A stretch of 64,000 nt of DNA from Candidatus Nanoarchaeia archaeon (GCA_035293285.1 DATDOM010000082.1:422-64421); one strand, 5' to 3'. Shown: positions 35,736-53,485, numbered from the stretch's first letter. Numbers and translations are program-made. The notes: a model not told the origin generated them from the sequence alone.

Positions 35736-36914
35736 ATGATGAACAAGAAGGGCCAGGGCGGAATAAATGCCGCTGTGCTTATAGCAATTATAGCAGCGCT
35801 GATAATTCTTTACATCATATTCCTCCCAACGTCTGAACGCGAGAATGTGCTTGGCGAGAATTCAGGCTCTTCATCAGACGGAGGCTCGTCAGTTTCTTCT
35901 GTTTCCCTTTTAAAGACAAATCCCGGCAAGCTCACAAGCCAGGGTGATTTGGAAAATGAAAAGCAGATACCAAACGTGTTTTTGGTGGAGACAAGCAATG
36001 CAAAAGAGCTTGACAGGATAAACCCCTTCATTGTAAGAAACGGCTGGTTTGACACAAAAGACAGCAAGATAGAATTTTCGCTCGATGAGCCGGAAAATAC
36101 CGACAATGCAGTCCTCTCATTTGGCACAAAAAAAAGGCAGGGTGTGCTGACAATAAAGCTAAATGGAGTCATAATTTTTGAAAATGAGCTTACAAGCGAC
36201 ATACCTGAGCCTGTAAAGCTTGACCGAAAGCTCCTGCAAAAGGCAAATTCGCTTGAATTCAGCGTATCTTCAGTCGGCGCAAAATTCTGGCAGACAAATG
36301 AGTATTCGCTTGAAAACATAAAAATCATTGGAGACATAACTGACACAAGCAGGCAGGCGTCAGAAAATGTTTTTGACATAACTGAAAGCGAGTTTTCGAA
36401 CCTGGAGCGGGCAACACTTAGGTTTGCACCATACTGCAGCGATACTGCAAATGTCGGACTATTGGAAATATTTGTCAACACCAAAAAAGTGTTTTCAAGC
36501 GTTCCTGTCTGCGACAATCCTTACAAGCAGAGCCTGCCAAAGAGCCTCTTAAACCAGGGGGAAAACAATATTGTATTCAAGACCAAAAAGGGCAGCTACA
36601 GCATTGAACAGATAAGAGTTGCCCTGGACTTTAAAAGCGCTGCATCAAAAACCTATTATTTTGAGCTTACCCCTGAGCAGTATTCAGCAATAAAAAGCGG
36701 AAGCAAGAGCGTGATTGCAACGCTGAAATTCGTGGATGACAAAACACAGAAAAGGCTGAAATTAGATGTCAACGGCAAGGCAGAAACAATAGAGACTGAC
36801 AAGGATTCAGTTACAAAAGCAATAGGAACTAAGGTGTCAGAGGGAAACAACTACATCAAGATAGACCCTTTTGAAGACCTTGAGCTTGTCGAGCTAAAAG
36901 TTGACCTTAACTAA
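35736..36914 (+). CDS. Secreted protein with a prepilin-like (class III) signal peptide, unknown function; first gene of the plus-strand surface operon
   Basis: MMNKKGQGG-INAAVLIAIIAALIILYIIFL, then a Ser/Gly linker and a roughly 330-aa beta-rich region. An ATTTAAATA box lies upstream. Confidence 0.6.
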   Translation: MMNKKGQGGINAAVLIAIIAALIILYIIFLPTSERENVLGENSGSSSDGGSSVSSVSLLKTNPGKLTSQGDLENEKQIPNVFLVETSNAKELDRINPFIVRNGWFDTKDSKIEFSLDEPENTDNAVLSFGTKKRQGVLTIKLNGVIIFENELTSDIPEPVKLDRKLLQKANSLEFSVSSVGAKFWQTNEYSLENIKIIGDITDTSRQASENVFDITESEFSNLERATLRFAPYCSDTANVGLLEIFVNTKKVFSSVPVCDNPYKQSLPKSLLNQGENNIVFKTKKGSYSIEQIRVALDFKSAASKTYYFELTPEQYSAIKSGSKSVIATLKFVDDKTQKRLKLDVNGKAETIETDKDSVTKAIGTKVSEGNNYIKIDPFEDLELVELKVDLN

Positions 36915-37017
36915 TTGCCTTTCAATCATCATCATAATATTCCGGTTCATATGAAAAGAGGTGGCTTTGGGAAGAATTCTTTAGAGGTTGTTATTTTGGA
37001 TTATATGGTGACTGAAA

Positions 37018-40000
37018 TTGGCTGACGACGGAGAAACTGAAAATCAAGAGGAGAATCCTGCAAGCGGAAGCTCCAGGTGGTCCAGATTTAAAGAGAAAGC
37101 AAGACAGGGCTACAAGAAGGGTAAAGAAAAGATAAGCCAGTCTGGACAGGGAGATGATTCTGGTGATGACAGCGGCGAGGCGCGCGGCAAGGGAACAATG
37201 CCAATCAATGTAACAAATATTGTTGAGCGCGCAAAGTCTGGAAATTTCGTCGGTTGGATAATTGTTGTTGCGCTTGTTTACATAGCTGCATATTACTGGT
37301 TTTTGCCGTTTAGGGTTTGGATCGGCATCTGGGGCTTTAAGCTTTTAGTCGGAATAATTTGGGTCTGCTTCATTTTATATGGGCTGTTTTCTGGTTTCTG
37401 GAACAAGGGTAAGGAAAATATTTCAATAACCAATTTTTTTGTCGGGCTTGTGCTGTTAGTATGGCTATTGGACATGATACCTGCAGACTTTCCGCTTTTT
37501 GGAAGCATTCTTGGCGGGCCCTATGCCGGTTTTGAGTTTGACTGGAAGAGTTTTTCATTTGGATTTTCAACAACGATACTGGCAGTAATAACATCTGGAA
37601 TAACATTTGCATTCTTGTATGTGAACATGATATTTGACATAATAAAAAAAGATGTCATAATGTTTGGGTTTGGGTTTGGGTTTATTGTATTGACAAACAA
37701 GCTTTTGGCAAATTTCATTCCAAGCTATTTGAGCGGCTCTTTTGTGCTCGTCTGGGGGTTTTGGATTTATTTCATTGTTACTGCCGTCCTTGTGGTGCTT
37801 GCAGTGTGGCTTGCAAAAAGATATGATGTGAAGTTAGGAGAAAAATCCGGTGATTTTTTCACTTATCTTCTTATGGCTTTTGTGTTCTCATTTTTTTGGA
37901 TAAACAACGGCTGGATTCACAGCACAAAAGCACTTTACCATGCGATATTCATACTTTGTTTTGGATTTTTTTACATCCAGCCGCATGAGAGGAAAAATCC
38001 TGTAGCATGGCACATTATTATCCCCGCTTTATTGATAATTGACTTTTATGGCTATGGACTTTTGTACTCGACAGATATCCTCTTTGTGCAGTTTATCCCC
38101 GTACTTGTGATTTTTGTCCTTGCTTACTGCTATTACCAGACCAAAAGTAAATATGCCCTGGTTTCTTTCATATTTCTTGTAACTGTGATACTTATCCTTA
38201 GCCTTGTGGCAGTCAACGCATACCAGACAGGCTCAATCCAGTTTCAGGCAAGAGGGGACGGAAAATCATTTTCAACTTTTCTCAATACGCTGACAAAGCA
38301 GACTACAAGCCTTCTCGAGGGGCAGCTTGAAACTGCAACAGGCGGATTATACAGAAGCCAGGTTGAAAAAAACCAGTATGAACCTTTGGGAGTCTACCTC
38401 ACGGACATACGGGCGTCCCAGCCAAGGTACAGGAGTGACGAGCCTGTTACAATCTGGGGCAAGATTAGTGCAAAAACACTGAGCGACCCAATAATAATAA
38501 ATTTCAACTGCTACAGGTTTGAGGGAAAAGACGAGAACAAACAGAAAATTCCAATAAAAGCAGAAGGGCTTTATCCAAACAAGCCTTTCAGTGTTTTTAC
38601 ATATGAGGAGAAAGACACCGAATGCAACTTTAACACCGAAGAAGACCAGGTTGAGCTAAAACCAGGCTCAAACGAAGTTTCATTGTCCGCAACCTATAAT
38701 TTTGACACAAGCGCATACCACAAAGTTTACTTCATTGACAAAGCAAGGCAGCGCTCAATGCTTGTTGAAGGGCTTGACCCATTAAAGGAGTTTGGGATAA
38801 CTGATAAAAACCCGGTTACCGTCTACACAAACGGCCCTGTTGAGCTTGCAGTAAGCATTTCAAACATTGTGACTGTTTCTTCCGAAGATGATTTGGCTCC
38901 GGTCATAGGAATACTCTTAAAAAACCGCGACAGGATAAGCGACAAGGCAGGAAGCCCGCTTGGACAGTGGGAGGGAAAGATAAAGGACATAAAAGAGCTT
39001 GTTTTGGTGCTTCCAAGGGGAGTTTCACTTAAAAAAGTGGAGAAAGACCAAAGATATGACTGCAAGCCTTCGCCTTTCAAGGATTACAGCTCACAAGACT
39101 GCAAAAACTCGTGCCAAACCTACGTGACTGAGCCATGCCATAAAATCTGCAACGAAAACGAGCAGTGCATTGAGCGTGACTGCAAGCCTTCAGAAAAAAG
39201 ATGTTTAGAGGAATGTGACGATTTGTTCAGGGTTGATTCTGCAGGCGGCGCAGAGCTCAAAGGATACCAGCTTGACATTGAAAGCATAAAATCGGAATTC
39301 AAATCAGATGACTTGAAAGATATAGATAAGTTTCGGACTTTTGGCTGCAGGCTTGAATTGGATGGCAAGGAGGTTTTGGATAACACGCCGATTACTACAA
39401 AATTCATAAGGTTAAAGGCAAGATACAATTACACTGTTGAGAAGGGTTTTAACATCAATGTTGATTCAATAAAAATAGATGAAACTGTAAACGGGGGACT
39501 GGTTTCTGATGACGGCTCGGGAAGATTTCCAGTAAGCAATTGTCAGTATAATGGACAGGAGTTTGCATCGAAAAAGTCCAACATAGACAAGATAATAAAC
39601 GGTCTTGCAGCTGCAGGAATAAATACAAAAAATGGAATTTCAGGCGTTCTTGGAAACTTCCGGCAGGAAAGTAACTTTGACCCGACAAAACAAGGTAAAT
39701 TTGGCGACTTGACTTGCTCTAATGACAGAATTGGACCACAGCAGGGGGCAATAGGAATTGCGCAGTGGTGCCGTGAACGCAGGACAAAACTAATCAGTAA
39801 ACACCCGAATTCATACCTGACAATTGATTCACAAGTGGATTATCTTGTATCTGAATTAACGGGGGACTACAAGGGGGCTGTTGCAAAAATGAATGCTGCA
39901 GGATCTCCGGAACAGGCTGCATTAATATGGCAGGGCAAAGCTTTTGAAAGTGCCACGCCAAGTCTAGCGGGGCCAAGAGATGAATATGCAAGGCAGGTTT

Positions 40001-40023
40001 ATAACGGTCTCGAGTGCACTTGA
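37018..40023 (+). CDS. Giant fusion protein: polytopic membrane domain, unknown ectodomain, Cys-rich linker and C-terminal phage-tail-lysozyme-like domain
   Basis: The ORF starts at TTG 37018 and the first ATG lies about 60 codons in. About 10 TM helices (residues about 75-400). The ectodomain shares landmarks with the three downstream paralogs. Cys-rich CKPSPF..CKNSCQTYVTEPCHKICNENEQCIERDCKPSEKRCLEEC. C-terminus GVLGNFRQESNFDP...GAIGIAQWCRERRTKL...QVDYLVSEL resembles Pfam Phage_tail_lysozyme (PF18013). Confidence 0.65.
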   Translation: MADDGETENQEENPASGSSRWSRFKEKARQGYKKGKEKISQSGQGDDSGDDSGEARGKGTMPINVTNIVERAKSGNFVGWIIVVALVYIAAYYWFLPFRVWIGIWGFKLLVGIIWVCFILYGLFSGFWNKGKENISITNFFVGLVLLVWLLDMIPADFPLFGSILGGPYAGFEFDWKSFSFGFSTTILAVITSGITFAFLYVNMIFDIIKKDVIMFGFGFGFIVLTNKLLANFIPSYLSGSFVLVWGFWIYFIVTAVLVVLAVWLAKRYDVKLGEKSGDFFTYLLMAFVFSFFWINNGWIHSTKALYHAIFILCFGFFYIQPHERKNPVAWHIIIPALLIIDFYGYGLLYSTDILFVQFIPVLVIFVLAYCYYQTKSKYALVSFIFLVTVILILSLVAVNAYQTGSIQFQARGDGKSFSTFLNTLTKQTTSLLEGQLETATGGLYRSQVEKNQYEPLGVYLTDIRASQPRYRSDEPVTIWGKISAKTLSDPIIINFNCYRFEGKDENKQKIPIKAEGLYPNKPFSVFTYEEKDTECNFNTEEDQVELKPGSNEVSLSATYNFDTSAYHKVYFIDKARQRSMLVEGLDPLKEFGITDKNPVTVYTNGPVELAVSISNIVTVSSEDDLAPVIGILLKNRDRISDKAGSPLGQWEGKIKDIKELVLVLPRGVSLKKVEKDQRYDCKPSPFKDYSSQDCKNSCQTYVTEPCHKICNENEQCIERDCKPSEKRCLEECDDLFRVDSAGGAELKGYQLDIESIKSEFKSDDLKDIDKFRTFGCRLELDGKEVLDNTPITTKFIRLKARYNYTVEKGFNINVDSIKIDETVNGGLVSDDGSGRFPVSNCQYNGQEFASKKSNIDKIINGLAAAGINTKNGISGVLGNFRQESNFDPTKQGKFGDLTCSNDRIGPQQGAIGIAQWCRERRTKLISKHPNSYLTIDSQVDYLVSELTGDYKGAVAKMNAAGSPEQAALIWQGKAFESATPSLAGPRDEYARQVYNGLECT

Positions 40024-40027
40024 AACA

Positions 40028-41056
40028 ATGAACAGCAAAAACATTAGCTTGATTATGGTCATATGTATTTTTATTAGCTCCTGCTCCTCTTCAAATAACC
40101 AGCAGTCATCGCTTGCCCAGCCGATTTATGGCTTTGACGGGCTTAAAATTGAGTTTGCAAAAGGGTTGTCACCAAAAGTTTTCGAGAAAAGCAGCTTTCC
40201 GCTGATTTTAAAGATATCCAACCAGGGCACTTACACAATTAATGAAAACGACAAAGCAGTGCTCTCAATTGGGACTGAAAAGGATTACATTCCTTCTTTT
40301 GAGTTTCTTCCAAGCGATGCACGTATTGAGACATCTATAAATCCAAATCAGAGGATGTTTGCTTTAGAAGGAAGAAGCCCTTTTAACCCCAGAGGAGAGG
40401 AGATTTATGTAGGACTCAATGCAAAGACAAGCAAGCTTGATGCACAGAGCGAGAAAAGGGTGTCAACCCTGACTGCAAGCCTTTGCTACCGTTATAAGAC
40501 AGTCTTAAACACAGATGCGTGCATAGACACAGACATTGTTGGGATAAGAACTGGAAAAAAAGTGTGCACTGTAAAAGACATTGTTTTTCCAAACGGGCAG
40601 GGCGCGCCCATTGCAGTAACAAAAATAGAGCAGCAGATAATACCACAGCAGGATTCTGTAAAGCAGCAGTTTCTCATATACGTTGAAAACAAGGGAAACG
40701 GGCATCCATTAAATCCGAGTAACTACCTGTCAATATGTGACAGCCAGGATTTTTCGCCAAAACTCTGGAATGTCGCATTCCTAAAGGCATTTAGGGTCGG
40801 AGGCGGCCCTGAAGGAGAGCAGATGATATGCTGCCCTAACATAAACGGCGAGTGCATTGAAACTGAAACTGACCCGGAGAAGATGGCAGGATTCATAAGG
40901 CTAAAGGACAACAAGGATTTTGTAAGATGCACGTTTGCAAAAGGAGTGGGGTTTGACAAAGACACTTTTATTTCACCAATAAAAATAGAAATAGAATATG
41001 GATATTCACAGACAATTTCGACTGATGTAGTAATCCAGAGGCCGATAAAATACTAA
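40028..41056 (+). CDS. Lipoprotein, novel ~340-aa family, paralog 1 of 3
   Basis: Start taken at MNSKNISLIMVICIFISSC. Shared landmarks LCYRYKT..ACIDTD, KKVCTVKD..GQGAPIAVTKIEQQ, IKIEIEYGYSQT. Confidence 0.6.
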   Translation: MNSKNISLIMVICIFISSCSSSNNQQSSLAQPIYGFDGLKIEFAKGLSPKVFEKSSFPLILKISNQGTYTINENDKAVLSIGTEKDYIPSFEFLPSDARIETSINPNQRMFALEGRSPFNPRGEEIYVGLNAKTSKLDAQSEKRVSTLTASLCYRYKTVLNTDACIDTDIVGIRTGKKVCTVKDIVFPNGQGAPIAVTKIEQQIIPQQDSVKQQFLIYVENKGNGHPLNPSNYLSICDSQDFSPKLWNVAFLKAFRVGGGPEGEQMICCPNINGECIETETDPEKMAGFIRLKDNKDFVRCTFAKGVGFDKDTFISPIKIEIEYGYSQTISTDVVIQRPIKY

Positions 41057-41098
41057 GCTTAGCAAAGTTTATATAAATGAATAAGAAAAAAATAAAAA

Positions 41099-42151: not shown

Positions 42152-42210
42152 TTGGGATAAACAGAAAGTTTTATATACCGAATTTGAAATAAAATGTTGA
42201 AAGAGGTAAA

Positions 42211-43233: not shown

Positions 43234-43333
43234 AAGTTTTATTTTGTTTAGTTTTATTATTTCTAATCGAGTCTCTCGATTGGATTATATTTTTAATTTA
43301 ATTAGTTCTTCCTAAAAAAGCGAATAATAGATA

Positions 43334-43405
43334 GGCCTCGCCATTAGCTCGGCATATATTTTATCATCCAATTCGCACAACTCGCCCCATTAGGGCGAGA
43401 GTTGA
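43334..43405 (+). repeat. GC-rich hairpin element, copy F (short form, modules 1+2)
   Basis: GGCCTCGCCATTAGCTCGGCATATAT...TTCGCACAACTCGCCCCATTAGGGCGAGAGTTGAT, lying between the two convergent surface operons. Confidence 0.65.
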
Positions 43406-43437
43406 TATTAAATTTAGTTATTACAAGAACTGATGGA

Positions 43438-47195: not shown

Positions 47196-47688
47196 GTGTG
47201 CCTCCTTTCAGTTTTTCCCCGTCTTTTATAAGTACATAATAATAGTGCCTTAGTTTTTGGGCAGAGCCTTTTCCGGAAAGTTTTGCCTCGACAAGGACTT
47301 TTTTCTCATAATAAAGCTCTTTATTGTAGTATGCCTCGTATTTTTTGTCAGAGTCTGATTCATATAATGTCATTTTTGCAGAAGACTCTGAATTTATCTT
47401 TCCGTAAAAAATCGAATCCAAAAGGTTTTTGTCAAGCTCGCTTGACTGGAATTTCTGCAAATCGACAGTTGCTGCATAAATTCTTCCTGTATCAGGATCA
47501 ACATAGCTTATTTTATCAGAAAATAGAATCCTGTAGGCTGCAAGGTCTGCTTCAAGGTCAAAAATATCTATGTTCCTAATGATGAATGTCCTTGAGAGCA
47601 GCACAACTGAGAGAAACATGCAGACAACCACCATAAGCCTTACTATGTCCACAACTGCATTGAACTGGGATTTTTTATGGATTTTCAT
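47164..47688 (-). CDS. Prepilin-like signal protein, unknown function
   Basis: MKIHKKSQ-FNAVVDIVRLMVVVCMFLSVVLL. Size is 174 aa. Confidence 0.5.
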   Translation of the reverse strand: MKIHKKSQFNAVVDIVRLMVVVCMFLSVVLLSRTFIIRNIDIFDLEADLAAYRILFSDKISYVDPDTGRIYAATVDLQKFQSSELDKNLLDSIFYGKINSESSAKMTLYESDSDKKYEAYYNKELYYEKKVLVEAKLSGKGSAQKLRHYYYVLIKDGEKLKGGTLEIETILPNR

Positions 47689-47714: not shown

Positions 47715-48752
47715 CTATTTTCCGGAGCACCAGGCCCAAACAGATTCTGCCCAGGACTTGTAATTTGAAGGATGGCCGTCTTTTGAACGCGGCTCTATTT
47801 TAAGCTGAGAGGAGTCATAATACAAGACTGATGGCGGAATGTTTCGGGATATTATTCCTGATATTACCGAAGTGTCGTATCCTGGCCAGGTTGGCGGCCC
47901 TATCCAGTAAATTACTGGCCTGCTTCCGATTTTCTGTATAAGTGCCCTGGTATCTTCTGCAACTGCCTGCTCGTTTTTTTTCCTGATTCCGGAGGTTTCA
48001 TCATTTACCCCCAAAGAAATGAACACTATGTCCGGATTGAATTTTAATGCGTTTGTCAATATTGAACTTTCATCCTTTGCCCACTGGCCAATCCTTTTGC
48101 CGCTTATTGCATTGTTTGAGAACGTGCCGCTTTGGGCAGAAACTTTTGAGCTTATGTGCGGCCCGAGCCCCTGGCCAAGCGAATCTCCTATCATCAAAAC
48201 TTTTGCTCCCTGAATATTAGAACATCCAGTTGTTTGAGTGTTATCCTGCTTTTGGCCAGGAGATTCTCCTGCTTTTGGCTGGCCGCGGATTGGCGCACTA
48301 ATTATTGTTTGTGGATCTTTGATGACTAAATTGCCCTGCCCTTTAGATACTATGAGATAATTTGCCCCAGACACTGAATAAGTTTCTCTTTTCTGGGAAT
48401 TTTTTCCATAAGGATATATTTTAGGTGTTCCTTCGGTTCCAACCCTGGCAACAGGCTTATCATCAGTCTCGCTTAACTGCCCGAGCTGAAAGCTGAATTT
48501 TGGAAAATCAAGCTTTTCAAGCAGGTATTTGTATTCCAGGTCGCCTGGAATAGCATAGGCAGAATTTGAAAACATTGCAATATCCCTGCTCAGGAATAGT
48601 TTTTCGAATTCCGTACTTCTCTCTATAGAGCTTACATAAGAGAGCAGAAGAAAAAGAACAAAGGCAGCGATTCCTATTTTGGTTATGTGCTCAAGAACCT
48701 GCCTTATGGAAATCTGGCCTGATTTATTGGCTTCAAAAAACCTCTTTTTCAT
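47715..48752 (-). CDS. Prepilin-like signal protein with a C-terminal SGNH/GDSL hydrolase domain
   Basis: KSGQ-ISIRQVLEHITKIGIAAFVLFLLL. SGNH blocks VLMIGDSLGQGLG (I), ISLGVNDE (III) and SKDGHPS (V, with one-residue shorter D..H spacing). Confidence 0.55.
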   Translation of the reverse strand: MKKRFFEANKSGQISIRQVLEHITKIGIAAFVLFLLLSYVSSIERSTEFEKLFLSRDIAMFSNSAYAIPGDLEYKYLLEKLDFPKFSFQLGQLSETDDKPVARVGTEGTPKIYPYGKNSQKRETYSVSGANYLIVSKGQGNLVIKDPQTIISAPIRGQPKAGESPGQKQDNTQTTGCSNIQGAKVLMIGDSLGQGLGPHISSKVSAQSGTFSNNAISGKRIGQWAKDESSILTNALKFNPDIVFISLGVNDETSGIRKKNEQAVAEDTRALIQKIGSRPVIYWIGPPTWPGYDTSVISGIISRNIPPSVLYYDSSQLKIEPRSKDGHPSNYKSWAESVWAWCSGK

Positions 48753-48847: not shown

Positions 48848-49657
48848 TCAGGAAGGGGTAGTATTTACGTAATTGCGTGCAGACATTGGGGTTTCAATAC
48901 GTTGGTTTCTTGAAATAACATCTGGATCTTTCATATCTCCAAATCCTATATAATAAATGTCATTCTTGTCTTTGAATTTTTCGATGTAAATGCGCCTGTT
49001 TGACCACTCCAGTTCCAGGTCGCATTGGCCGTAAAGTGTTACAAAATAATTTTGGCGTGAGGTTTCGTATGGCAGTTTCCAGTCAGTCTTGCTTCCATAA
49101 AAGTGGCCGCTCTTCCCCAAAGCCAGTGATAAGAACACTATCTTTTCAGCAAATTTCTTGCACTTGACCGGAGCTGCCATTGGCTCATGCTTATCAAAAT
49201 CATAAATGCCGCCTGCGCCTGACCCAACTGCATGATAATTATTGTACAAGCACAAGCATGAAAACTTTTCGCATGCCTTTGGCCTTGATTTGTCTATAGG
49301 CTCGGGCTTTTCTCCTTCAATAGTGCAATAACTGAGCATTTGACTGTTATCCTGATAATTGAATCCTACGAGTATGTAGTCATCCGGCAATTCGTATATC
49401 ATTGTGTCTTTAAGGACTGCAACATTGCTTGTTTCTGAGCCTCTAGGGTCGCGCATCATGTCAGTGATTTTTTTGTTAAGCTCATCAAGATTGTTGACTG
49501 CTGCATCGTATTCCTGGTTGCTTGTGAAAAGGTTTGAAAGCCTGTAGCCTATGTAAATTAGGAAAAGCACTACAATTACGGCCAAAAAAACCTCAAGAAT
49601 CTGGATCAGGGAAATTTCCGTTGAAGATGTGCCCTTTTTATTTTTTTTTAATTTCAT
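48848..49657 (-). CDS. Prepilin-like signal protein, unknown function
   Basis: Start taken at MKLKKNKKG-TSSTEISLIQILEVFLAVIVVLFLIY. ORF track start 49684 would overlap the upstream gene. Confidence 0.5.
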   Translation of the reverse strand: MKLKKNKKGTSSTEISLIQILEVFLAVIVVLFLIYIGYRLSNLFTSNQEYDAAVNNLDELNKKITDMMRDPRGSETSNVAVLKDTMIYELPDDYILVGFNYQDNSQMLSYCTIEGEKPEPIDKSRPKACEKFSCLCLYNNYHAVGSGAGGIYDFDKHEPMAAPVKCKKFAEKIVFLSLALGKSGHFYGSKTDWKLPYETSRQNYFVTLYGQCDLELEWSNRRIYIEKFKDKNDIYYIGFGDMKDPDVISRNQRIETPMSARNYVNTTPS

Positions 49658-49674
49658 ATTTTTATAGAAAATAA

Positions 49675-50070
49675 TCAGGTACAACGATTATCGCTTGTTT
49701 TTTTGCCGTTGCATTCAAAGACCGTATCATCGTTCGAATCTTTGTCGCATGCGTCCGGCATCCCGTCCAGGTCCTTGTCATTGATATTGGCGCTGTCAGT
49801 GCCTTTTATGCATATATCACATGCATCAGGCCTTCCATCCTTGTCTGCATCCGTAAAGTCTATGCCGCGCTCCATCGCATCATTTCCTTTATTGACACAT
49901 GCTTTGTCCCTTATCTTTAATTCGGACGGGCCTATGACATTTGATGCCGCTGTCGAGCCCTTAAAAAGAAAGTGATAAGCAAAAAATAATACGGCAAGCC
50001 CTACCAAAATCCCCATTACCATTTTTAACCCTGAGCTTGTCTGGCTTTTTTTGTGTATTTTTGGTTTCAT
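49675..50070 (-). CDS. Anchored protein with thrombospondin type-3-like Ca-binding repeats
   Basis: Start at MKPKIHKKSQTSSGLKMVMGILVGLAVLFFAY, chosen because ATG 50070 forms an ATGA overlap with the upstream stop. DADKDGRPDACDIC and DKDLDGMPDACDKD repeats. Confidence 0.55.
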   Translation of the reverse strand: MKPKIHKKSQTSSGLKMVMGILVGLAVLFFAYHFLFKGSTAASNVIGPSELKIRDKACVNKGNDAMERGIDFTDADKDGRPDACDICIKGTDSANINDKDLDGMPDACDKDSNDDTVFECNGKKTSDNRCT

Positions 50071-50306
50071 TTTGAGCAGCATACCGGAGTTTCTTTTGGG
50101 CATGTATAGCTTGGTGCCGGAGTGCTGCACTGCCCTTTTACGGTGCATTTGAACCCCTTAGATTCGCAACCAAAAGCATCCTTGTTAAAAGTTGATGAGC
50201 CTTTGGATATAAAAATAAAGCTTACTACAAGTATTGCAAGAAGTATTGCAGCGGCAATTATCATGTTTAGAGCAGCTGCCTCTGCCCTTTTTTTCTTTAT
50301 GTTCAT
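50067..50306 (-). CDS. Small pilin-like protein with a Cys-rich C-terminus
   Basis: MNIKKKRAEAA-ALNMIIAAAILLAILVVSFIFI is homologous to the N-terminus of the pilin at 53485. 6 Cys residues in the last 45 aa. Confidence 0.55.
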   Translation of the reverse strand: MNIKKKRAEAAALNMIIAAAILLAILVVSFIFISKGSSTFNKDAFGCESKGFKCTVKGQCSTPAPSYTCPKETPVCCSK

Positions 50307-50346: not shown

Positions 50347-51237
50347 TCATGTTTTCCCGCATATGGGCCATTTTTGTGCCCAGTTTTTATACTGGTCTTC
50401 AGTTAGGCAGCCGAATTTTTCAAAGCACCTTGAGTGGGAGAGTTCTGACTCACAAACCTGATATGAAACTCTTCCAACAGTATCTCCAGGAAGCCTTGTA
50501 TCTTCCACGACGCATCGGCAAGGATAATTAAGTATTACACATGACCCGGGTCCGTCTGTATTGCATACAGGAAGCTTTTCAATCAGGAAATTATTTGAGA
50601 TTGAGCAGGCCGCGAGAGCTTCTGTGTAAAGCTTGTTTTTGTTTGAGTCTTTTGGCACTGAGAAGCCTGGATAATAAAAGTGAAGGTCATCTGACTTCTT
50701 GCATCCTGCATTATGATTGTAGCACCTATAGCCTGTGTCGCAGTATTGTCCGTTGTCCTTGCCTTCATAGCAAATGCACGGCCCGTTTTTAACGTTGCAG
50801 GAGAACTTATCTGTCTGGCATTCGCTTGAAGCTTGTCCAATATTCTTTTTCAAGTCTGCGCAGTTTTCCAGGTTGTGCTGTACTGGAAGAGTGTTGCTGC
50901 ATCCAATAAACCCATCATAGCAATAGGGTTTTTCAGGGCTGCACTGGTCGGGCCTTTGTTTTAGTTCTTTTTCCTTTGCTGAAAAGCAAAGGCAGGGAAA
51001 TGAAGAAGCTTTACAGCTTGAAGCATCAACATCACACCTGTGTTTTTGATAATCTACAAGAACATTGTTCCATAACAAGTCAGGGTCTGCTGATTCAACA
51101 ACCTCGTTTTTTGTGATTCCAAGCGCATCCTTGATTAGTTTAGAGATGTTTGAGGAAAAAAACATGCCAAAAACTATGAAAAAAAGAACGATTGCTATGA
51201 CAATCATTTCTGAAAAACCCATTGATTTTTTGTTCAT
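50347..51237 (-). CDS. Prepilin-like signal protein, extremely Cys-rich ectodomain
   Basis: Start at MNKKSMG-FSEMIVIAIVLFFIVFGMFF (TAAAATG junction with the upstream gene). About 30 Cys residues in 296 aa. Confidence 0.55.
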   Translation of the reverse strand: MNKKSMGFSEMIVIAIVLFFIVFGMFFSSNISKLIKDALGITKNEVVESADPDLLWNNVLVDYQKHRCDVDASSCKASSFPCLCFSAKEKELKQRPDQCSPEKPYCYDGFIGCSNTLPVQHNLENCADLKKNIGQASSECQTDKFSCNVKNGPCICYEGKDNGQYCDTGYRCYNHNAGCKKSDDLHFYYPGFSVPKDSNKNKLYTEALAACSISNNFLIEKLPVCNTDGPGSCVILNYPCRCVVEDTRLPGDTVGRVSYQVCESELSHSRCFEKFGCLTEDQYKNWAQKWPICGKT

Positions 51238-51238
51238 T

Positions 51239-51382
51239 TTATCCAAAAATTGAGCCAAGCGAGCTGTCCAGTGATTTTGAGATTTCAGGAGAAGTGAGGA
51301 TAACTATAATCAGCACTACCATCGCAATAACCAGCAGTGCTACAAACTCCCATGAAATCGCAATCGCTTTTTTGTGTTTCAT
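51239..51382 (-). CDS. 47-aa pilin-like micro-protein
   Basis: Below the ORF-track cutoff. MKHKKA-IAISWEFVALLVIAMVVLIIVILTSPEISKSLDSSLGSIFG. Its stop is followed immediately by the next ATG (GGATAAAATGAAC). Confidence 0.5.
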   Translation of the reverse strand: MKHKKAIAISWEFVALLVIAMVVLIIVILTSPEISKSLDSSLGSIFG

Positions 51383-51413: not shown

Positions 51414-52232
51414 TTATTGCTGCAGCACCGGCAAATCCTTGCAGTTTAGTGCAGTCAGCTGCTCGGGATTATAAGGAATAAAGTTTATCAGGGCTATGTG
51501 CTGAAAAGGATCTTTTGTGAAATAAGTTTCAAGTCCTGCCCAAATTGCACCTCCGGCAACTAGGATTGTTCCTATGACAGGGTGCTGTGCTATCAGCATG
51601 ACTCCGACAATGACCGAGCCTGCTCCGGGCGCCGCATTTCTGGCCTTTTTCAAGTATTCATCAAGGTATTTTTTGCCTTTTATGTAAGTGAAGACTACAG
51701 CATACTTGTCATCTTTTGAGCCGTCAATGGCATCTGAAATTTTCTTGTTGTTGAATTCTTCAATGAATCCTGTGTCATCAGTCTTTTCAGTTGTGAGGTA
51801 TTTCAAGTATGAAACCGACTTGCTTGAGTCTGACTTGCTTGCAAGGAATTTTGAAAAGTCGTTGATTTTCACGTCCTTGCCAAAATCAACCCTATAACAA
51901 ACGGCGCAGTATACATTATCATCGGTAAAAAGCTCGAGCTTTCCCCTTCCAAAATTGTCCCAGCAGTCCCGCATCAAATCCGCGATTTTCTTTTTTGCAG
52001 CTTCCTCATTTTTGTCATTTATCTTCAATTTAACCGTAGGGCATTTCACGTCGCTTGAAAAGTCTGCATACCTTAATTTGAGCTTTGCGTGTGTTTCAAC
52101 ACTTGCCTTGCAGGTTTGTTTTGCTGTTGCATGATCATACAAGTCTTTTAATTTTCCTTCTGTTGAAAAAAACATGAATAGTGCCAAGAGGACTATTATT
52201 GTAGAAACAAAGGCTATTGTTGTTATCCTCAT
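51414..52232 (-). CDS. Anchored extracellular protein, unknown family (paralog of 52234-53022)
   Basis: MRITTIAFVSTIIVLLALFMFF anchor. Shared pattern C..CP..(D/L)CW..C..C with the upstream gene. C-terminal hydrophobic segment GSVIVGVMLIAQHPVIGTILVAGGAIWAG. Confidence 0.5.
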   Translation of the reverse strand: MRITTIAFVSTIIVLLALFMFFSTEGKLKDLYDHATAKQTCKASVETHAKLKLRYADFSSDVKCPTVKLKINDKNEEAAKKKIADLMRDCWDNFGRGKLELFTDDNVYCAVCYRVDFGKDVKINDFSKFLASKSDSSKSVSYLKYLTTEKTDDTGFIEEFNNKKISDAIDGSKDDKYAVVFTYIKGKKYLDEYLKKARNAAPGAGSVIVGVMLIAQHPVIGTILVAGGAIWAGLETYFTKDPFQHIALINFIPYNPEQLTALNCKDLPVLQQ

Positions 52233-52233
52233 T

Positions 52234-53022
52234 TTAGTTTAATATTATGTCGCATATTTTGGCGTCTACATTAGCTTCTTTTGATAAAGTAACTGTGTAA
52301 AATGAATTCTTATCTCCAAGGTCTTCAGCAGCCCATGTTGGCTTAAACCCAATAAAAAACATAGAATACTTTTCATAGTTTTTTAGGATATCAGGAACCA
52401 AATAATCACCTCCACTATCAGAAAATTGACCTACTTTTAGGTAATTTTCTTTAATTTTGCTTTTTGGGGCTACTGCCAGATAGTCAAAATATGTCTGAGG
52501 GTTTTTTGGTATTTTATTTTCTTTTAGGTAATTTATAAATTCCTTTATTTCATGAATATTATCAGAATTTACATCAAATTCCATAGACGAGCAGATTAGG
52601 CATATATTATTGTCTCCAAATGCAGTGCCGGGATTCTCAAAGACCAAACCTTTTCCTTCAAGCAGCTTATACCAGCAAAGGCGCAGTTCCTCTGCAAACA
52701 CTTTTTTTACTGAATCCTCATAATTTTTCCCAATAGGGTATTCCTTTGCCTTTTTGCCGTTTATCTCAACTTTATTATCGTATATTTTTATAACTCTTCT
52801 TGGGCAGTCCAAAGGAATTGTCGTGCTGCCGGTAGGGTTCAATGCTCCAAGAGTTTTTAGCTCTATGCTTTGCGCAAGCGCGCTTGTCCTGCATACTTCA
52901 ATATCACCTTTCTTTTTTGACTGGGTTACAAAACTGTAAGTGAATGCTATTAGTATTCCTGCAACTACAAGAAAGATTATGAGGATGACCAAAGTTTCGT
53001 CAAGTATTGCTTTTTTGTCCAT
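52234..53022 (-). CDS. Prepilin-like signal protein, unknown family (paralog of 51414-52232)
   Basis: Start at MDKKA-ILDETLVILIIFLVVAGILIAF (TAAAATG junction). CRTS..DCPRR..LCWYKL..NICLICS pattern. Confidence 0.5.
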   Translation of the reverse strand: MDKKAILDETLVILIIFLVVAGILIAFTYSFVTQSKKKGDIEVCRTSALAQSIELKTLGALNPTGSTTIPLDCPRRVIKIYDNKVEINGKKAKEYPIGKNYEDSVKKVFAEELRLCWYKLLEGKGLVFENPGTAFGDNNICLICSSMEFDVNSDNIHEIKEFINYLKENKIPKNPQTYFDYLAVAPKSKIKENYLKVGQFSDSGGDYLVPDILKNYEKYSMFFIGFKPTWAAEDLGDKNSFYTVTLSKEANVDAKICDIILN

Positions 53023-53023
53023 T

Positions 53024-53167
53024 TTATCCCAATATCCTGTTTGCTGCATTTCTTACTGCAAGAGCGACAAGCAGAGAAAACAAAATCCCTATTAGCACGT
53101 AAAGCATGGTCTTGAGGGCAATGGTTATTCCTTTATTGCAATTTACAAGCCTATAGGGTCTTAACAT
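53024..53167 (-). CDS. 47-aa single-helix micro-protein
   Basis: Below the ORF-track cutoff. MLRPYRLVNCNKGITIALKTMLYVLIGILFSLLVALAVRNAANRILG. Same length and same GGATAAAATG junction as 51239-51382. Confidence 0.4.
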   Translation of the reverse strand: MLRPYRLVNCNKGITIALKTMLYVLIGILFSLLVALAVRNAANRILG

Positions 53168-53209
53168 ACAGAAACCAAGAATTAATGTATATAAAAATAT
53201 TTGTTTATG

Positions 53210-53485
53210 TTAAATGCAGCAGCACACGTTTCCTTCTGTAGTTATGTCTGCATAGGTTCCTGGCAATACCTGGCCCTGAGAGCTTGTGCATCCCGGCCTG
53301 TCTGTTTCAGTCCATGACTTTCCAAGGCCTGCGCATCCATTCTGGCAGGATGTCGTGTCTGCAACTCCTTTTGAGAATATTCCAAGCCTTCCTGTAAAAA
53401 TTAAGAACAAAACAACCAAGACTGCAAGGCCAATGGCGGCAATAATGATAGTGTTTATTGAAATTCCCTGTGCTTTTTTCTGCAT
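53210..53485 (-). CDS. Archaeal type IV pilin-like protein; first gene of the minus-strand surface operon
   Basis: MQKKAQG-ISINTIIIAAIGLAVLVVLFLIF class III signal. Small Cys-containing globular part (91 aa). Confidence 0.7.
   Translation of the reverse strand: MQKKAQGISINTIIIAAIGLAVLVVLFLIFTGRLGIFSKGVADTTSCQNGCAGLGKSWTETDRPGCTSSQGQVLPGTYADITTEGNVCCCI

What the first reader, a model, noticed from the sequence alone, without database searches (positions are those of the whole stretch)
35736..53485. 18-kb pair of convergent operons: 19 consecutive prepilin-signal or anchored surface proteins carrying a murein-attack toolkit in an archaeon
Seen in sequence:
- 5 plus-strand genes (35736-43233) and 14 minus-strand genes (53485-43438) converge on a hairpin repeat at 43334-43405.
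- The genes are tightly packed. Most gaps are under 50 nt, and there are ATGA and TAAAATG stop/start junctions.
- Every product starts with a short K/R-rich stretch followed by a 20-25 aa hydrophobic helix.
- About ten fit the archaeal class III (type IV prepilin) pattern: K-K-[G/A/S], then a polar or acidic residue a few positions in. Examples are MQKKAQG-ISINTIIIAAIGLAVLVVL, MMNKKGQGG-INAAVLIAII, KKA-IAISWEFVALLV, KSGQ-ISIRQVLE, KKA-ILDETLVIL and KKG-MALADLF.
- Three others have lipoboxes.
- Three domains resemble murein-acting enzymes: phage-tail-lysozyme-like (end of 37018-40023), M15/VanY LAS peptidase (45444-46655) and SGNH esterase (47715-48752).
- The remaining roughly 15 proteins match nothing I recognise. 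They include Cys-rich, TSP3-repeat and paralogous families.

Established knowledge: archaea lack murein. Class III signals route proteins to pilus-like or bindosome-like surface assemblies. DPANN archaea live attached to host cells.

Inference: this may be a pilus or pseudopilus-associated surface apparatus that displays glycan-cleaving, peptide-cleaving and de-O-acetylating activities against a bacterial cell wall (host, prey or competitor). In other words, it could be an undescribed contact or attack system. No PilB/ArlI-type ATPase, PilC/ArlJ platform or prepilin peptidase lies in the window.
Basis: partly seen in the sequence, partly recalled or inferred. Interest (0 to 1): 0.9.

Follow-up and report, generated by a model that had tools for sequence, protein, structure and literature searches.

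The report
Two Woesearchaeal murein-targeting surface operons
A wall-less DPANN archaeon (Woesearchaeota) carries two separately conserved surface-protein operons side by side, one a membrane scaffold with a swappable bacterial-cell-wall-cutting head and one a pilin-like gene cluster with a cell-wall peptidase, which gives concrete candidates for how these uncultured archaea engage bacteria.

Summary
There are 5 plus-strand and 14 minus-strand tightly packed genes. 13 of the 19 products have class III (prepilin-like) N-termini and 3 have lipoboxes. Pfam confirms all three enzyme calls: Phage_lysozyme2 (5e-20), Peptidase_M15/VanY (2e-8) and GDSL_2 (2e-8). The host is a Woesearchaeota/Nanoarchaeia MAG with housekeeping flanks and no provirus signs.

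The "one apparatus" reading is only partly supported, because these are two independent conserved units.
- **Operon A (g1-g5)** sits beside pelota in 5 of 5 genomes examined and is never next to operon B elsewhere. Its 1001-aa protein has a conserved scaffold of about 830 aa. Homologues carry different peptidoglycan-hydrolase heads on that scaffold: SLT 18, glucosaminidase 8, amidase 1, lysozyme-type 2.
- **Operon B (g17-g6)** is collinear in about 15 Woesearchaeota loci, with 11-16 pilin-like genes per locus. It always includes an M15 protein with intact LAS motifs. The SGNH fusion occurs only in this genome.

No pilus ATPase, platform protein or prepilin peptidase lies in the window or in 470 kb of related loci.

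Large murein hydrolases in Woese-/Pacearchaeota are already published. I did not find the operon architectures, the head swapping or the enzyme-bearing pilin-like proteins in the searchable literature. I rate this a new variant of a known kind, with interest about 0.65.

The parts
35736..36914 (+). g1, 392 aa. First gene of operon A. Class III-like signal (MMNKKG|QGGINAAVL...) followed by a beta-rich ectodomain.
   Evidence: There is a weak CBM-like Pfam hit (E = 7e-4, below cutoff). Orthologues are 58-62% identical and sit in the same position in L003 and L005, with the K/R-[AG]-QGG motif conserved.
37018..40023 (+). g2, 1001 aa. It has a disordered cytoplasmic N-terminus, about 10-12 TM helices (residues 77-395) and an Ig-like beta ectodomain with a Cys-rich helical hairpin (456-816). 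A disordered linker (817-853) leads to a muralytic head (855-996, nt 39580-40005).
   Evidence: Pfam PF18013 scores 4.9e-20. 35 homologues are 33-45% identical over the scaffold only. Heads differ between homologues. The catalytic Glu (E884, 'QES') is at least 90% conserved. The head is 31-35% identical to Bacillus and Staphylococcus phage tail lysins. The family profile matches MltC, Slt70 and g-type lysozyme in PDB only at the head.
40028..41056 (+). g3, lipobox protein (ISSC|S). Paralogue of g4 and g5. The ORF opens at 39980; the likely start is ATG 40028.
   Evidence: invariant lipobox Cys and 8 further invariant Cys/Tyr/Gly positions.
41099..42151 (+). g4, lipobox protein (VFGC|S). Paralogue of g3 and g5.
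42211..43233 (+). g5, lipobox protein (LAAC|S) with a two-domain tandem Ig-like beta-sandwich. It is the most conserved member (63-64% identity to orthologues).
   Evidence: The AF2 model has pLDDT 93.4 and pTM 0.86. Foldseek finds only low-TM matches to MSCRAMM adhesins and integrin legs. The family has 962 clusters in 1.84e9 representatives.
43234..43437 (.). Convergent intergenic spacer with terminator-like hairpins. It contains one copy (43332-43405) of a dispersed two-hairpin repeat of about 75 nt.
43438..45444 (-). g6, 668 aa. Last gene of operon B. N-terminal hydrophobic anchor (not class III-like). Orthologues carry fn3.
   Evidence: 6 homologues, 31-37% identity, PF00041 precomputed. 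It follows the M15 gene in nearly all related loci.
45444..46655 (-). g7, 403 aa. Pilin-like N-terminus (MKNRKS|SFYF...; the L008 orthologue has KNKKG|IGLEWYF) and a C-terminal LAS/M15 (VanY-type) zinc peptidase.
   Evidence: Pfam M15 scores 2.1e-8 and VanY 3.6e-5. S292-x-Y-R, H334-x6-D341 and W374-H375 (ExWH) are invariant in 4 orthologues. It was found in 18 Woesearchaeota loci. The same domain (48% identity) sits beside SLT in a 2401-aa protein.
46683..47195 (-). g8, 170 aa. Class III-like (GKKG|MALADLF, Asp at +5).
   Evidence: Orthologues are in L009, L011, L012, L013, L015 and L026.
47164..47688 (-). g9, 174 aa. Class III-like (HKKS|QFNAVVD).
   Evidence: It is 52-53% identical to the L009 and L026 orthologues.
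47715..48752 (-). g10, 345 aa. Class III-like (NKSG|QISIRQVLE) pilin-like module fused to an SGNH/GDSL domain (residues about 185-345).
   Evidence: Pfam GDSL_2 scores 2.4e-8 and DUF459 3e-5. GDS and GxND blocks are present, while block V reads D-G-H. The best PDB match is the peptidoglycan O-acetyltransferase PatB, but it is weak (E = 0.4). Orthologues in the closest relatives are 130-200 aa and align only to the N-terminal part of g10; two longer distant ones (L027, L028) have no Pfam domain. The esterase is therefore a fusion seen only here.
48848..49684 (-). g11, 278 aa (likely start 49657). Class III-like (NKKG|TSSTEISLIQ).
49675..50148 (-). g12 (likely start 50070, giving an ATGA overlap with g13). 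Class III-like (HKKS|QTSSG), with TSP3-like Asp-rich Ca-binding repeats.
   Evidence: There is a weak NCBIfam thrombospondin-3-type hit. Orthologues are in L009 and L026.
50067..50306 (-). g13, 79 aa. Small pilin-like protein with a 6-Cys C-terminal knot. Paralogue of g17.
50347..51258 (-). g14, 303 aa (likely start 51237). Class III-like (NKKS|MGFSEMIV, Glu at +5), with a 24-Cys ectodomain.
51239..51382 (-). g14b, 47 aa mini-pilin-like protein (HKKA|IAISWEF).
   Evidence: Orthologues of 47-56 aa occupy the same position in L007 and L009.
51414..52232 (-). g15, 272 aa. N-terminal anchor plus two C-terminal TM helices. Paralogue of g16 (shared CW...G.G...F...C..C motif). Not class III-like.
   Evidence: It is 51% identical to the L009 orthologue and 45% to the L026 orthologue.
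52234..53049 (-). g16, 271 aa (likely start 53022). Class III-like (DKKA|ILDETLV).
53024..53167 (-). g16b, 47 aa mini-pilin-like protein (NKG|ITIALKT).
   Evidence: The L009 orthologue is 47% identical (E = 3e-7).
53210..53485 (-). g17, 91 aa. First gene of operon B. Class III-like (MQKKA|QGISINTIII) with a 6-Cys head. It is the candidate major subunit.
   Evidence: It is present in 2-3 tandem copies, 45-57% identical, in most related loci. A TATA-like TTTAAATAT lies 33 nt upstream.

Best explanation
The 18-kb stretch is two separately inherited, Woesearchaeota-wide surface-protein operons that happen to abut in this genome.

Operon A (35736-43233, + strand) is a core-genome cluster next to pelota. 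Its central protein, g2, is a polytopic membrane scaffold. It has about 10-12 TM helices, an Ig-like ectodomain and a Cys-rich hairpin. A flexible linker holds out an exchangeable head that cleaves murein glycan strands. Here the head is of the phage-tail-lysin type; in relatives it is SLT, glucosaminidase or amidase. The scaffold is accompanied by one pilin-signal beta-rich protein (g1) and three lipid-anchored tandem-Ig paralogues (g3-g5), which probably build or brace the ectodomain stalk.

[quoted passage not shown] It encodes:
- two small Cys-knot pilins, the likely major subunits;
- two 47-aa mini-pilins;
- eight larger 'minor' or modular pilin-like proteins;
- two proteins anchored without a pilin signal.
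One modular member always carries an intact LAS/M15 D-Ala-type peptidase. In this genome only, another carries an SGNH (PatB/DUF459-like) esterase.

Inferred mechanism: a prepilin peptidase and an assembly ATPase/platform encoded elsewhere process these proteins and assemble them into a fibre or short pseudopilus. That structure exposes the peptide-cleaving and O-acetyl-acting enzymes, while the operon A scaffold exposes the glycan-cleaving head. Because the archaeon makes no murein, both act on bacterial cell walls at cell-cell contact, for attachment, local wall breaching or feeding.

Shown: the gene content, the domains and their motifs, the signals, the two independent synteny blocks and the head swapping. 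Inferred: signal cleavage, filament assembly, the complex between g1-g5, the substrate, and the biological role.
For: - Taxon and context: g2 is identical to an NCBI 'Candidatus Nanoarchaeia archaeon' MAG protein. All 18 genome loci found with the M15 protein are Woesearchaeota MAGs. Flanks are housekeeping genes such as pelota, ACS, aIF5B, Trm1 and Tyw1, GC content is even across the region, and there is no tRNA or integrase.
- Independence of the operons: operon A sits beside pelota in the window, L003, L005, L029 and L030 and is followed there by unrelated genes. Operon B is collinear in L007-L009, L011, L012, L015, L017, L018, L020, L023 and L025-L027, with varied neighbours. In one genome the two operons are on different contigs.
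- Murein focus: heads across 36 scaffold homologues are SLT 18, glucosaminidase 8, amidase_2 1, Phage_lysozyme2 1 and Lysozyme_like 1. Nearest scaffold neighbours carry different heads. Glu884 is conserved, and the head matches PDB lytic transglycosylases and phage tail lysins. The LAS motifs of M15 are invariant. The same M15 domain is fused to SLT in a 2401-aa protein in L024.
- Pilin-like signals: 13/19 locus products versus 3/41 other window ORFs (p = 2e-6). In 10 related loci the counts are 142/181 versus 3/56 (p = 6e-24). The +1 residue is Gln in 54 of the 142. This matches the Methanococcus EppA-type pilin signal of leader-Gly, +1 Gln and +5 Glu, where major pilins are small and pilin genes lie away from the ATPase locus (PMC3875500). 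Two canonical pilins with the same KSQ|AA.EF signal lie in the window at 17611-18565.
- Structures: g5 is a confident tandem Ig-like protein that resembles adhesins, not enzymes.
Against: - No pilus ATPase, platform protein or prepilin peptidase was found in the window. No T2SSE-type Walker A motif occurs in 470 kb of window plus 30 related loci.
- No archaeal pilin profile (DUF361 or NCBIfam) matches any of the products.
- A groundwater study states that type IV pilus components are missing from DPANN genomes (bioRxiv 10.1101/2020.05.14.094862).
- A K/R-rich N-terminus followed by a helix is also what a plain N-in signal anchor looks like.
- The SGNH block V is atypical (D-G-H), and its PatB similarity is not significant (E = 0.4).
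- The g2 scaffold has no structural relative, so its role is unknown. Invariant D152, H308 and D342 may indicate a function I have not considered.
- Homology between the g2 ectodomain and g3-g5 is not supported (hhalign probability 2-8%).
- No enzyme activity, substrate or host is known.
Confidence: 0.6

Rival explanations
1. All 19 genes would encode one integrated pilus-associated attack machine, with the two convergent operons co-functioning as a unit.
For: - The operons are adjacent here and share a murein theme covering glycan, peptide and possibly O-acetyl bonds.
- g1 of operon A has the same KK[GA]|QG signal as g17 of operon B, and an L005 g1 orthologue gives a weak BLAST hit to g17.
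- Both promoter regions contain TTTAAATAT.
Against: - Adjacency is not conserved. It is absent from all 4 other operon A loci and from every operon B locus that has enough downstream flank.
- In GCA_016187465.1 the operons are on separate contigs.
- The shared 9-mer is a generic TATA-like sequence in AT-rich DNA.
- Functional cooperation without genetic linkage remains possible and is part of my best explanation.
Confidence: 0.15
2. No filament is made. The N-termini would be uncleaved signal anchors, and the products would form a membrane-anchored envelope or pseudo-periplasmic protein layer. The hydrolases would digest free murein debris (necromass) for amino sugars and amino acids rather than attack living cells.
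For: - No assembly machinery is found near either operon in 31 sequences.
- No pilin profile hits were obtained.
- The literature claims that DPANN lack T4P components (10.1101/2020.05.14.094862).
- The organism has comparatively rich carbon metabolism, including ACS, thiolases, a CoA transferase and methylmalonyl-CoA mutase.
- Ultra-small cells have been seen near lysed cells (same preprint).
Against: - The motif is more specific than the positive-inside rule. It is [KR]-[GAS], then often Gln at +1 and an acidic residue at +3 to +7, and it is conserved across orthologues and shared with canonical pilins in the same window.
- Mature pilin-sized 47-91-aa products consisting of little more than the helix (g14b, g16b, g13, g17) make little sense as envelope enzymes.
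- Archaeal pilin genes are commonly unlinked to their ATPase (PMC3875500).
- Cell-anchored enzymes need contact with their polymeric substrate.
Confidence: 0.2
3. The enzymes are housekeeping autolysins that remodel an endogenous murein-like or pseudomurein wall of the archaeon.
For: Operon A is core-genome, vertically inherited and next to pelota. That pattern suits a housekeeping role.
Against: - No Mur ligase, MraY or PBP gene lies in the window or in any of the loci annotated with Pfam families.
- Archaeal peptidoglycan-hydrolase homologues are concentrated in Nanoarchaeota and are almost absent from pseudomurein producers (PMC12352652).
- Woese-/Pacearchaeota hydrolases are interpreted as acting on bacterial walls (PMC8204110).
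- Free exchange among lytic transglycosylase, glucosaminidase, amidase and lysozyme heads is typical of weapons and phage lysins, not of dedicated autolysins.
Confidence: 0.03
4. The locus is a provirus, or a phage-tail-derived (tailocin-like) element.
For: The g2 head matches phage tail lysins and tape-measure PHROGs. Operon A is bracketed by inverted copies of a 22-nt repeat at 35537 and 43332.
Against: - PHROG hits are confined to the lysozyme head and a weak SGNH match. There is no capsid, portal, terminase or integrase.
- Both operons keep conserved chromosomal positions and order across many genomes.
- GC content is even.
- The repeat also occurs in three unrelated intergenic regions.
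- The g5 fold has no specific viral match.
Confidence: 0.02

Closest known systems
[quoted passage not shown] 2021, PMC8204110; Vigneron et al. 2022, PMC9723730; archaeal peptidoglycan hydrolases, PMC12352652)
   Same: Same lineage and same idea: an archaeon without murein carries cell-surface murein hydrolases that presumably act on bacteria. The L024 2401-aa fn3+SLT+VanY protein fits that description.
   Different: - Here the hydrolase sits on a conserved polytopic membrane scaffold of about 830 aa, inside a 5-gene operon linked to pelota.
- The head is exchanged among four or more hydrolase families.
- Three paralogous lipoproteins and a pilin-signal protein accompany it.
None of these features appears in the passages of those papers that I retrieved by term search. 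Whether the g2 family equals fam00969 was not tested.
Methanococcus maripaludis Epd pili / archaeal type IV filament 'system 1' (PMC3875500; bioRxiv 10.64898/2026.04.22.720090)
   Same: - Short leader ending in Gly/Ala/Ser, with frequent +1 Gln and an acidic residue near +5.
- Small (about 50-70 aa mature) candidate major pilins.
- Many different pilins.
- Pilin genes unlinked to the ATPase/platform locus.
- System 1 is reported in some DPANN.
   Different: - There is no DUF361 or pilin profile match.
- A single operon holds 11-16 pilin-like genes.
- Heads are Cys-rich.
- Enzyme modules (M15, SGNH) are attached.
- No EppA, ATPase or platform gene was found nearby.
Modular type IV pilins of bacteria (Streptococcus sanguinis PilB/PilC; PMC8179133) and class III-signal substrate-binding proteins (bindosome) of archaea
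   Same: An N-terminal pilin module carries a grafted functional domain for display on a filament. A peptidase module is listed among the bacterial architectures.
   Different: The grafted modules here act on murein (a LAS peptidase and a PatB-like SGNH domain), and the host is an archaeon. The archaeal survey I could read reports substrate-binding proteins and contains no occurrence of 'hydrolase', 'peptidoglycan' or 'enzym' in its text.
Type IV pili of episymbiotic Saccharibacteria/CPR (PMC9894109, PMC11623550)
   Same: An ultra-small, host-dependent cell uses type IV filaments to find and hold a bacterial host. The ecological niche is the same (groundwater CPR/DPANN).
   Different: That system is bacterial, has known machinery and has been tested by genetics. 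Pili carrying murein hydrolases were not mentioned in the abstracts I saw.
Phage tail-associated lysins and specialised lytic transglycosylases of bacterial secretion systems
   Same: A muralytic domain is held at the tip of a larger structure to open murein locally. The g2 head is 31-35% identical to Bacillus and Staphylococcus phage tail lysins.
   Different: The carrier here is a chromosomal archaeal membrane protein, not a virion or a bacterial envelope-spanning machine. No other viral proteins are present.

Membership tests
Archaeal type IV pilins / class III signal-peptide proteins | Short positively charged leader ending in Gly/Ala/Ser, followed directly by a hydrophobic alpha-helix of about 20 aa | tested here: met
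   13/19 locus products meet this against 3/41 other window ORFs. In related loci the counts are 142/181 versus 3/56. The motif is conserved in orthologues.
Archaeal type IV pilins / class III signal-peptide proteins | Match to a curated pilin N-terminal profile (Pfam DUF361/PF04021, NCBIfam archaeal pilin or flagellin N-terminal models) | tested here: not met
   No such hit at E <= 0.1 (Pfam) or E <= 1 (NCBIfam, 10 proteins).
Archaeal type IV pilins / class III signal-peptide proteins | Cognate prepilin peptidase, PilB/ArlI-type ATPase and TadC/ArlJ platform in the genome | not testable with these tools
   None lies in the window, and there is no T2SSE Walker A motif in 470 kb of window plus 30 loci. 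The rest of the genome could not be searched.
Archaeal type IV pilins / class III signal-peptide proteins | Pilin fold (protruding alpha-1 helix packed on a beta-sheet or Ig-like head) | not tested
LAS / M15 (VanY-type) zinc peptidases | Profile match above the curated threshold | tested here: met
   Peptidase_M15 scores 34.6 bits against a cutoff of 27 (E = 2.1e-8). VanY scores 24.0 against 25. A profile of 4 orthologues hits YodJ and other D-Ala-D-Ala carboxypeptidases only weakly (E = 0.03-0.4).
LAS / M15 (VanY-type) zinc peptidases | Zinc and catalytic motifs S-x-Y-R, H-x(6)-D and E-x-x-H | tested here: met
   S292/Y294/R295, H334...D341 and W374-H375 are invariant in 4 orthologues, and the Glu three residues before H375 (E-x-W-H) is present in all four sequences.
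Lysozyme-like / lytic transglycosylase superfamily (PF18013 Phage_lysozyme2) | Profile match above threshold and a catalytic Glu | tested here: met
   The score is 72.6 bits against a cutoff of 28.2. Glu884 in 'RQES' is at least 90% conserved across heads. The family profile aligns the ES motif to MltC.
SGNH/GDSL hydrolases | Blocks I (GDS), III (GxND) and V (DxxH) | tested here: inconclusive
   PF13472 scores 35.1 bits against a cutoff of 32.9. 'MIGDSLG' and 'LGVND' are present. Block V reads 'KDGHP' (D-x-H) and lies outside the aligned part of the profile. Similarity to PatB is not significant.
Lipobox (bacterial-type) lipoproteins | [LVI][ASTVI][GAS]C at the end of a signal peptide, with the Cys conserved | tested here: met
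   The motifs are ISSC, VFGC and LAAC. The Cys is invariant in 9 sequences and nearly invariant in 96. Lipid modification in this archaeon cannot be tested.
Polymorphic C-terminal effector architecture | Conserved N-terminal carrier with unrelated, exchangeable C-terminal enzymatic domains among close relatives | tested here: met
   No adjacent immunity gene is expected or seen. The analogy is functional, not a claim of family membership.
Provirus / phage-tail-like element | Viral hallmark genes (capsid, portal, terminase, integrase) or variable insertion next to a tRNA | tested here: not met
   Chromosomal synteny is conserved.

The most novel reading that the evidence does not exclude
Woesearchaeota possess a dedicated cross-domain contact apparatus. 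It would combine a type IV filament built from a dozen or more pilin-like proteins, carrying a murein peptidase at its tip or along its shaft, with a core-genome membrane scaffold. The scaffold's exchangeable muralytic head and polytopic domain would breach the wall of a living bacterial host and perhaps form an uptake conduit. That would make these abundant, uncultured archaea obligate epibionts or predators of bacteria, with a machine that has no described counterpart.
Probability: 0.2. Interest if true: 0.9.

Novelty: new variant of a known kind. Interest (0 to 1): 0.65.

Why it matters
Woesearchaeota are among the most abundant and diverse uncultured archaea. Their hosts, and how they engage them, are unknown. 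Murein hydrolases have been the main hint that some of them associate with bacteria. This analysis turns that hint into two defined, lineage-wide genetic modules with testable parts.

- **Operon A** is a core-genome membrane scaffold whose muralytic head has been replaced repeatedly. That is a signature of selection on murein cleavage and possibly of host-range adaptation.
- **Operon B** is a pilin-like operon in which a cell-wall peptidase is itself pilin-like.

The work also questions the working assumption that piliated ultra-small cells in groundwater cannot be DPANN. The same MAG set carries operons with 11-16 pilin-like genes. The heads, the M15 module and the small Cys-knot pilins are tractable targets for expression, antibodies or FISH-correlated cryo-ET, and host prediction.

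Tried and rejected
- **Single-sequence PDB searches:** phmmer with g7, the g2 head and g10 gave nothing. The SGNH domain alone gave only a non-significant PatB match.
- **Foldseek, g2 model:** only generic Ig-like or low-TM hits. The STT3/AglB soluble-domain hits (E about 0.01, TM about 0.1) are too weak to support a GT-C idea.
- **Foldseek, g5 model:** the PDB and viral libraries returned tandem Ig-like adhesin or integrin-leg matches with low TM and no specific relative. The g5 family profile found nothing in PDB.
- **g2 ectodomain versus g3-g5:** I suspected by eye that they are homologous. hhalign gave only 1.7% and 7.9% probability over a terminal beta-hairpin, so I dropped the claim.
- **NCBIfam on 10 operon proteins:** nothing.
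- **PHROGs:** hits only to the lysozyme head and a weak SGNH match.
- **Five extra upstream genes of operon B:** relatives have them (a Cys-rich TSP3 protein plus four pilin-like genes). tblastn shows they are absent from the window.
- **T2SSE-type Walker A motif:** none in any held sequence.
- **Shared regulatory motif between the two promoters:** only a TATA-like 9-mer.
- **Rfam on the window:** no family.
- **Intergenic repeat:** not found in related loci.
- I did not use the third protein-database search, because I had no trustworthy Woesearchaeal pilus-ATPase query for it.

Full report
**1. What is in the sequence**

The region contains 19 ORFs. Five are on the plus strand (g1-g5, 35736-43233) and fourteen on the minus strand (g17...g6, 53485-43438). 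They converge on a 204-nt spacer.

The two 47-aa ORFs (51239-51382 and 53024-53167) are taken as real genes. ORFs of matching size and position exist in related loci, and the second also gives a BLAST hit.

With the likely internal ATG starts for g3, g11, g12, g14 and g16, the junctions are short gaps or ATGA-type overlaps.

The spacer has two terminator-like hairpins and folds better than shuffled sequence (z = -2.9). Five copies lie in intergenic regions of the window, where none is expected by chance, and one of them is upstream of g1. The element is a genome-wide repeat, not a locus-specific signal.

**2. Organism and context**

g2 is identical to a protein that NCBI names from a 'Candidatus Nanoarchaeia archaeon' MAG, on a 65-kb contig. 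Every named homologue is from Woesearchaeota or Nanoarchaeota.

The flanks are ordinary archaeal genes: pelota, acetyl-CoA synthetase, aIF5B, Trm1, Tyw1, methylmalonyl-CoA mutase, thiolases and others. GC content is flat across the locus and there are no tRNAs. PHROG hits are confined to the lysozyme head and a weak SGNH match. I see no sign of a provirus.

**3. The enzymes**

Pfam confirms all three calls made by eye.
- **g2, residues 855-996:** Phage_lysozyme2, E = 4.9e-20.
- **g7:** Peptidase_M15 (2.1e-8) and VanY (3.6e-5).
- **g10:** Lipase_GDSL_2 (2.4e-8) and DUF459 (3e-5).

The LAS motifs of g7 (S-x-Y-R, H-x6-D, E-x-W-H) are invariant in four orthologues.

The g2 head contains the Glu-Ser catalytic motif. 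That Glu is conserved in at least 90% of 36 family members even though their heads belong to different families. The head is 31-35% identical to tail lysins of Bacillus and Staphylococcus phages.

The SGNH domain has blocks I and III, but block V is atypical (D-G-H). Its best PDB match is the peptidoglycan O-acetyltransferase PatB, and that match is not significant (E = 0.4). An action on O-acetyl groups is plausible but not shown.

**4. The signals**

I applied a relaxed FlaFind-type rule: [KR][GAS] within 40 residues of the N-terminus, followed within 10 residues by a strongly hydrophobic 16-mer.
- It picks 13 of the 19 products and 3 of 41 other ORFs in the window (Fisher p = 2e-6).
- Two of those three are textbook archaeal pilins at 17611-18565.
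- In ten related loci it picks 142 of 181 operon B ORFs against 3 of 56 flanking ORFs (p = 6e-24).
- The residue after the predicted cut is Gln in 54 of the 142.

This is the pattern described for EppA-processed pilins of Methanococcus maripaludis: a leader ending in Gly, +1 Gln and +5 Glu. There the major pilins are also small, and the pilin genes lie apart from the ATPase/platform locus (PMC3875500).

The motif is kept in orthologues, including the M15 protein (for example KNKKG|IGLEWYF in L008).

The exceptions are:
- g2, which is polytopic;
- g3-g5, which have lipoboxes whose Cys is invariant;
- g6 and g15, which have plain hydrophobic anchors.

No curated pilin profile matches any product.

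**5. Two units, not one**

*Operon A (g1-g5).* It lies next to pelota, usually with acetyl-CoA synthetase beyond it. This holds in the window and in four other genomes whose g2 proteins are only 35-42% identical to the window's (L003, L005, L029, L030). In those genomes the next genes are RFC, a PRC-domain gene, Cas4 or others, never operon B.

*Operon B.* It is collinear in about 15 Woesearchaeota loci. The order is g17 (2-3 copies), g16/g15, g14, g13, g12, g11, g10, g9, g8, g7 (M15), g6 (fn3). Most relatives add five upstream genes: a Cys-rich TSP3 protein and four more pilin-like genes. The window lacks these. Neighbours differ from locus to locus.

In GCA_016187465.1 the two operons are on different contigs. 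The adjacency seen here is therefore a peculiarity of this genome.

**6. Operon A in detail**

Thirty-five homologues of g2 align over a scaffold of about 830 residues and then diverge. Scanning each member gave SLT in 18, glucosaminidase in 8, amidase_2 in 1, Phage_lysozyme2 in 1 (the window) and Lysozyme_like in 1.

Nearest neighbours by scaffold identity often carry different heads. The window protein (lysozyme-type) is closest to P0002 (SLT), and P0002 is closest to P0003 (glucosaminidase). Repeated replacement by unrelated domains that all cut murein is the strongest evidence that murein cleavage is the selected function.

The AlphaFold model of g2 (pLDDT 70; above 85 in most of the ectodomain) shows:
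- about 10-12 TM helices;
- a beta-sandwich ectodomain containing a Cys-rich helical hairpin;
- a disordered linker;
- the head.

Foldseek finds no convincing relative for the scaffold, and sequence profiles match PDB only at the head. D152, H308 and D342 in the membrane domain are invariant or nearly so. That hints at a catalytic or transport role I cannot assign.

g5 models with high confidence (pLDDT 93, pTM 0.86) as two tandem Ig-like sandwiches. The only matches are low-TM ones to MSCRAMM adhesins and integrin legs. Its family has 962 clusters among 1.84 billion representatives.

I suspected that the g2 ectodomain is a fourth paralogue of g3-g5, but hhalign does not support this.

**7. 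Operon B in detail**

- g17 and g13 are 91- and 79-aa proteins made of the signal, the helix and a six-Cys knot. g17 is first in the operon and is duplicated in relatives, so these are the candidate major subunits.
- g14b and g16b are 47-aa mini-pilins.
- g16, g14, g12, g11, g10, g9, g8 and g7 are larger pilin-like proteins. g7 and g10 are modular, meaning a pilin-like N-terminal part plus an enzyme.
- The g10 orthologues in the closest relatives are 130-200 aa and align only to the N-terminal part of g10. Two longer distant ones (L027, L028) have no Pfam domain. The esterase therefore looks like a fusion specific to this genome.
- The same M15 domain (48% identity) sits next to an SLT domain in a 2401-aa surface protein of another Woesearchaeon. 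This ties the M15 module to murein.

No ATPase, platform protein or peptidase is encoded near operon B in any locus, and no T2SSE-type Walker A motif occurs in 470 kb of held sequence.

**8. Comparison with what is known**

*Murein hydrolases.* Large murein-type lytic transglycosylase proteins in Woese- and Pacearchaeota, and their possible use against bacteria, are published (PMC8204110, PMC9723730). Archaeal peptidoglycan hydrolases that kill bacteria have been demonstrated in other lineages (PMC12352652).

*Display on filaments.* Modular pilins are established in bacteria (PMC8179133). Class III-signal substrate-binding proteins are discussed as a way of functionalising archaeal filaments (bioRxiv 10.64898/2026.04.22.720090). 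Type IV pili drive episymbiosis in Saccharibacteria (PMC9894109).

*What I did not find.* In the library I could search, I did not find:
- the pelota-linked 5-gene operon;
- the conserved scaffold with head swapping;
- the paralogous tandem-Ig lipoproteins;
- the 14-20-gene pilin-like operon with a LAS-peptidase pilin.

*Groundwater claim.* One groundwater study states that type IV pilus components are missing from DPANN and uses pili to identify cells as CPR (10.1101/2020.05.14.094862). Woesearchaeota MAGs with 'NC_groundwater' isolate names (which I take to be from that project) carry operon B (L011, L012, L015, L017, L022, L023, L025).

**9. Verdict**

Filament assembly remains inferred.

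Best explanation (confidence about 0.6): two independent, lineage-wide surface modules directed at bacterial murein. One is a membrane scaffold with an exchangeable glycan-cleaving head. The other is a type IV filament-like set of pilins that displays a peptide-cleaving enzyme.

Main rival (about 0.2): the same proteins act as uncleaved membrane anchors for scavenging wall debris.

Novelty: a new variant of known kinds. Interest: 0.65.

Noticed in passing
window 17611-18063 (+) and 18122-18565 (+): Two tandem paralogous genes (150 and 147 aa) have textbook archaeal class III signals (NNKS|QAAMEFLMAYGWAILVV and NRKS|QAALEFIMTYGWAILVV). They are canonical type IV pilins lying outside the finding. 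They show that the genome uses prepilin-type secretion, although Pfam gave no hit at E < 0.001.
   Followed up: partly
window 9949-9970, 26512-26533, 31786-31807, 35537-35558 (-), 43332-43353, each extending about 75 nt: This is a dispersed intergenic repeat (TAGGCCTCGCCATTAGCTCGGC ... CTCGCCCCATTAGGGCGAG) with two hairpins and a few compensatory changes. There are 5 copies where none is expected by chance. It has no Rfam family and is absent from related loci. It could be a REP/MITE-like element or a small structured RNA or protein-binding site. Copies bracket operon A in inverted orientation, but three other copies lie elsewhere.
   Followed up: partly
L024:2760-9965 (CAZIEE010000031.1): A 2401-aa Woesearchaeal surface protein combines fn3, Big_13, SLT and VanY/M15 domains. 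Its M15 domain is 48% identical to that of g7. It probably belongs to the published class of giant murein-hydrolase proteins.
   Followed up: partly
L009, L011, L012, L017, L018, L020, L023, L025, L026 upstream of the g17 homologues: Most relatives have five more operon B genes that the window lacks. These are a Cys-rich TSP3_bac protein of 400-630 aa and four pilin-like proteins with very conserved N-termini (SQLYGQIFIYILT, KKAFEIQFNWIFVL, KKSQIQIGETIAVLF, KRAQMEILGLAIVV).
   Followed up: partly
window 55327-56628 (+): A 433-aa protein has a RelA_SpoT (alarmone synthetase) domain (E = 4.8e-12). I believe this is uncommon in archaea (my own recollection, not checked).
   Followed up: no
window 4474-13459 and 23184-24779: A cluster encodes a CoA-transferase, two thiolase-like proteins, DUF362, a FabA-like dehydratase, a biotin carboxylase and a biotin ligase. 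Methylmalonyl-CoA mutase lies further along. This is comparatively rich acyl-CoA metabolism for a DPANN genome.
   Followed up: no
window 138-2066 (-), 2026-4356 (-), 61058-63269 (-): Further surface or membrane proteins lie here: a TSP_3 x4 + F5/8 type C protein, a DUF2339 polytopic protein, and a VWA protein paired with a MoxR-like AAA ATPase.
   Followed up: no
window 53522-55165 (+) and 20480-21700 (+): A 547-aa ORF diverges from operon B and a 406-aa secreted Cys-rich ORF lies further upstream. Neither has a Pfam match.
   Followed up: no
g2 residues D152, H308, D342 (window about 37471, 37939, 38041): These polar residues sit inside the membrane domain of the scaffold and are invariant or nearly invariant across 36 homologues. 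They suggest a catalytic or transport function for the carrier itself.
   Followed up: no
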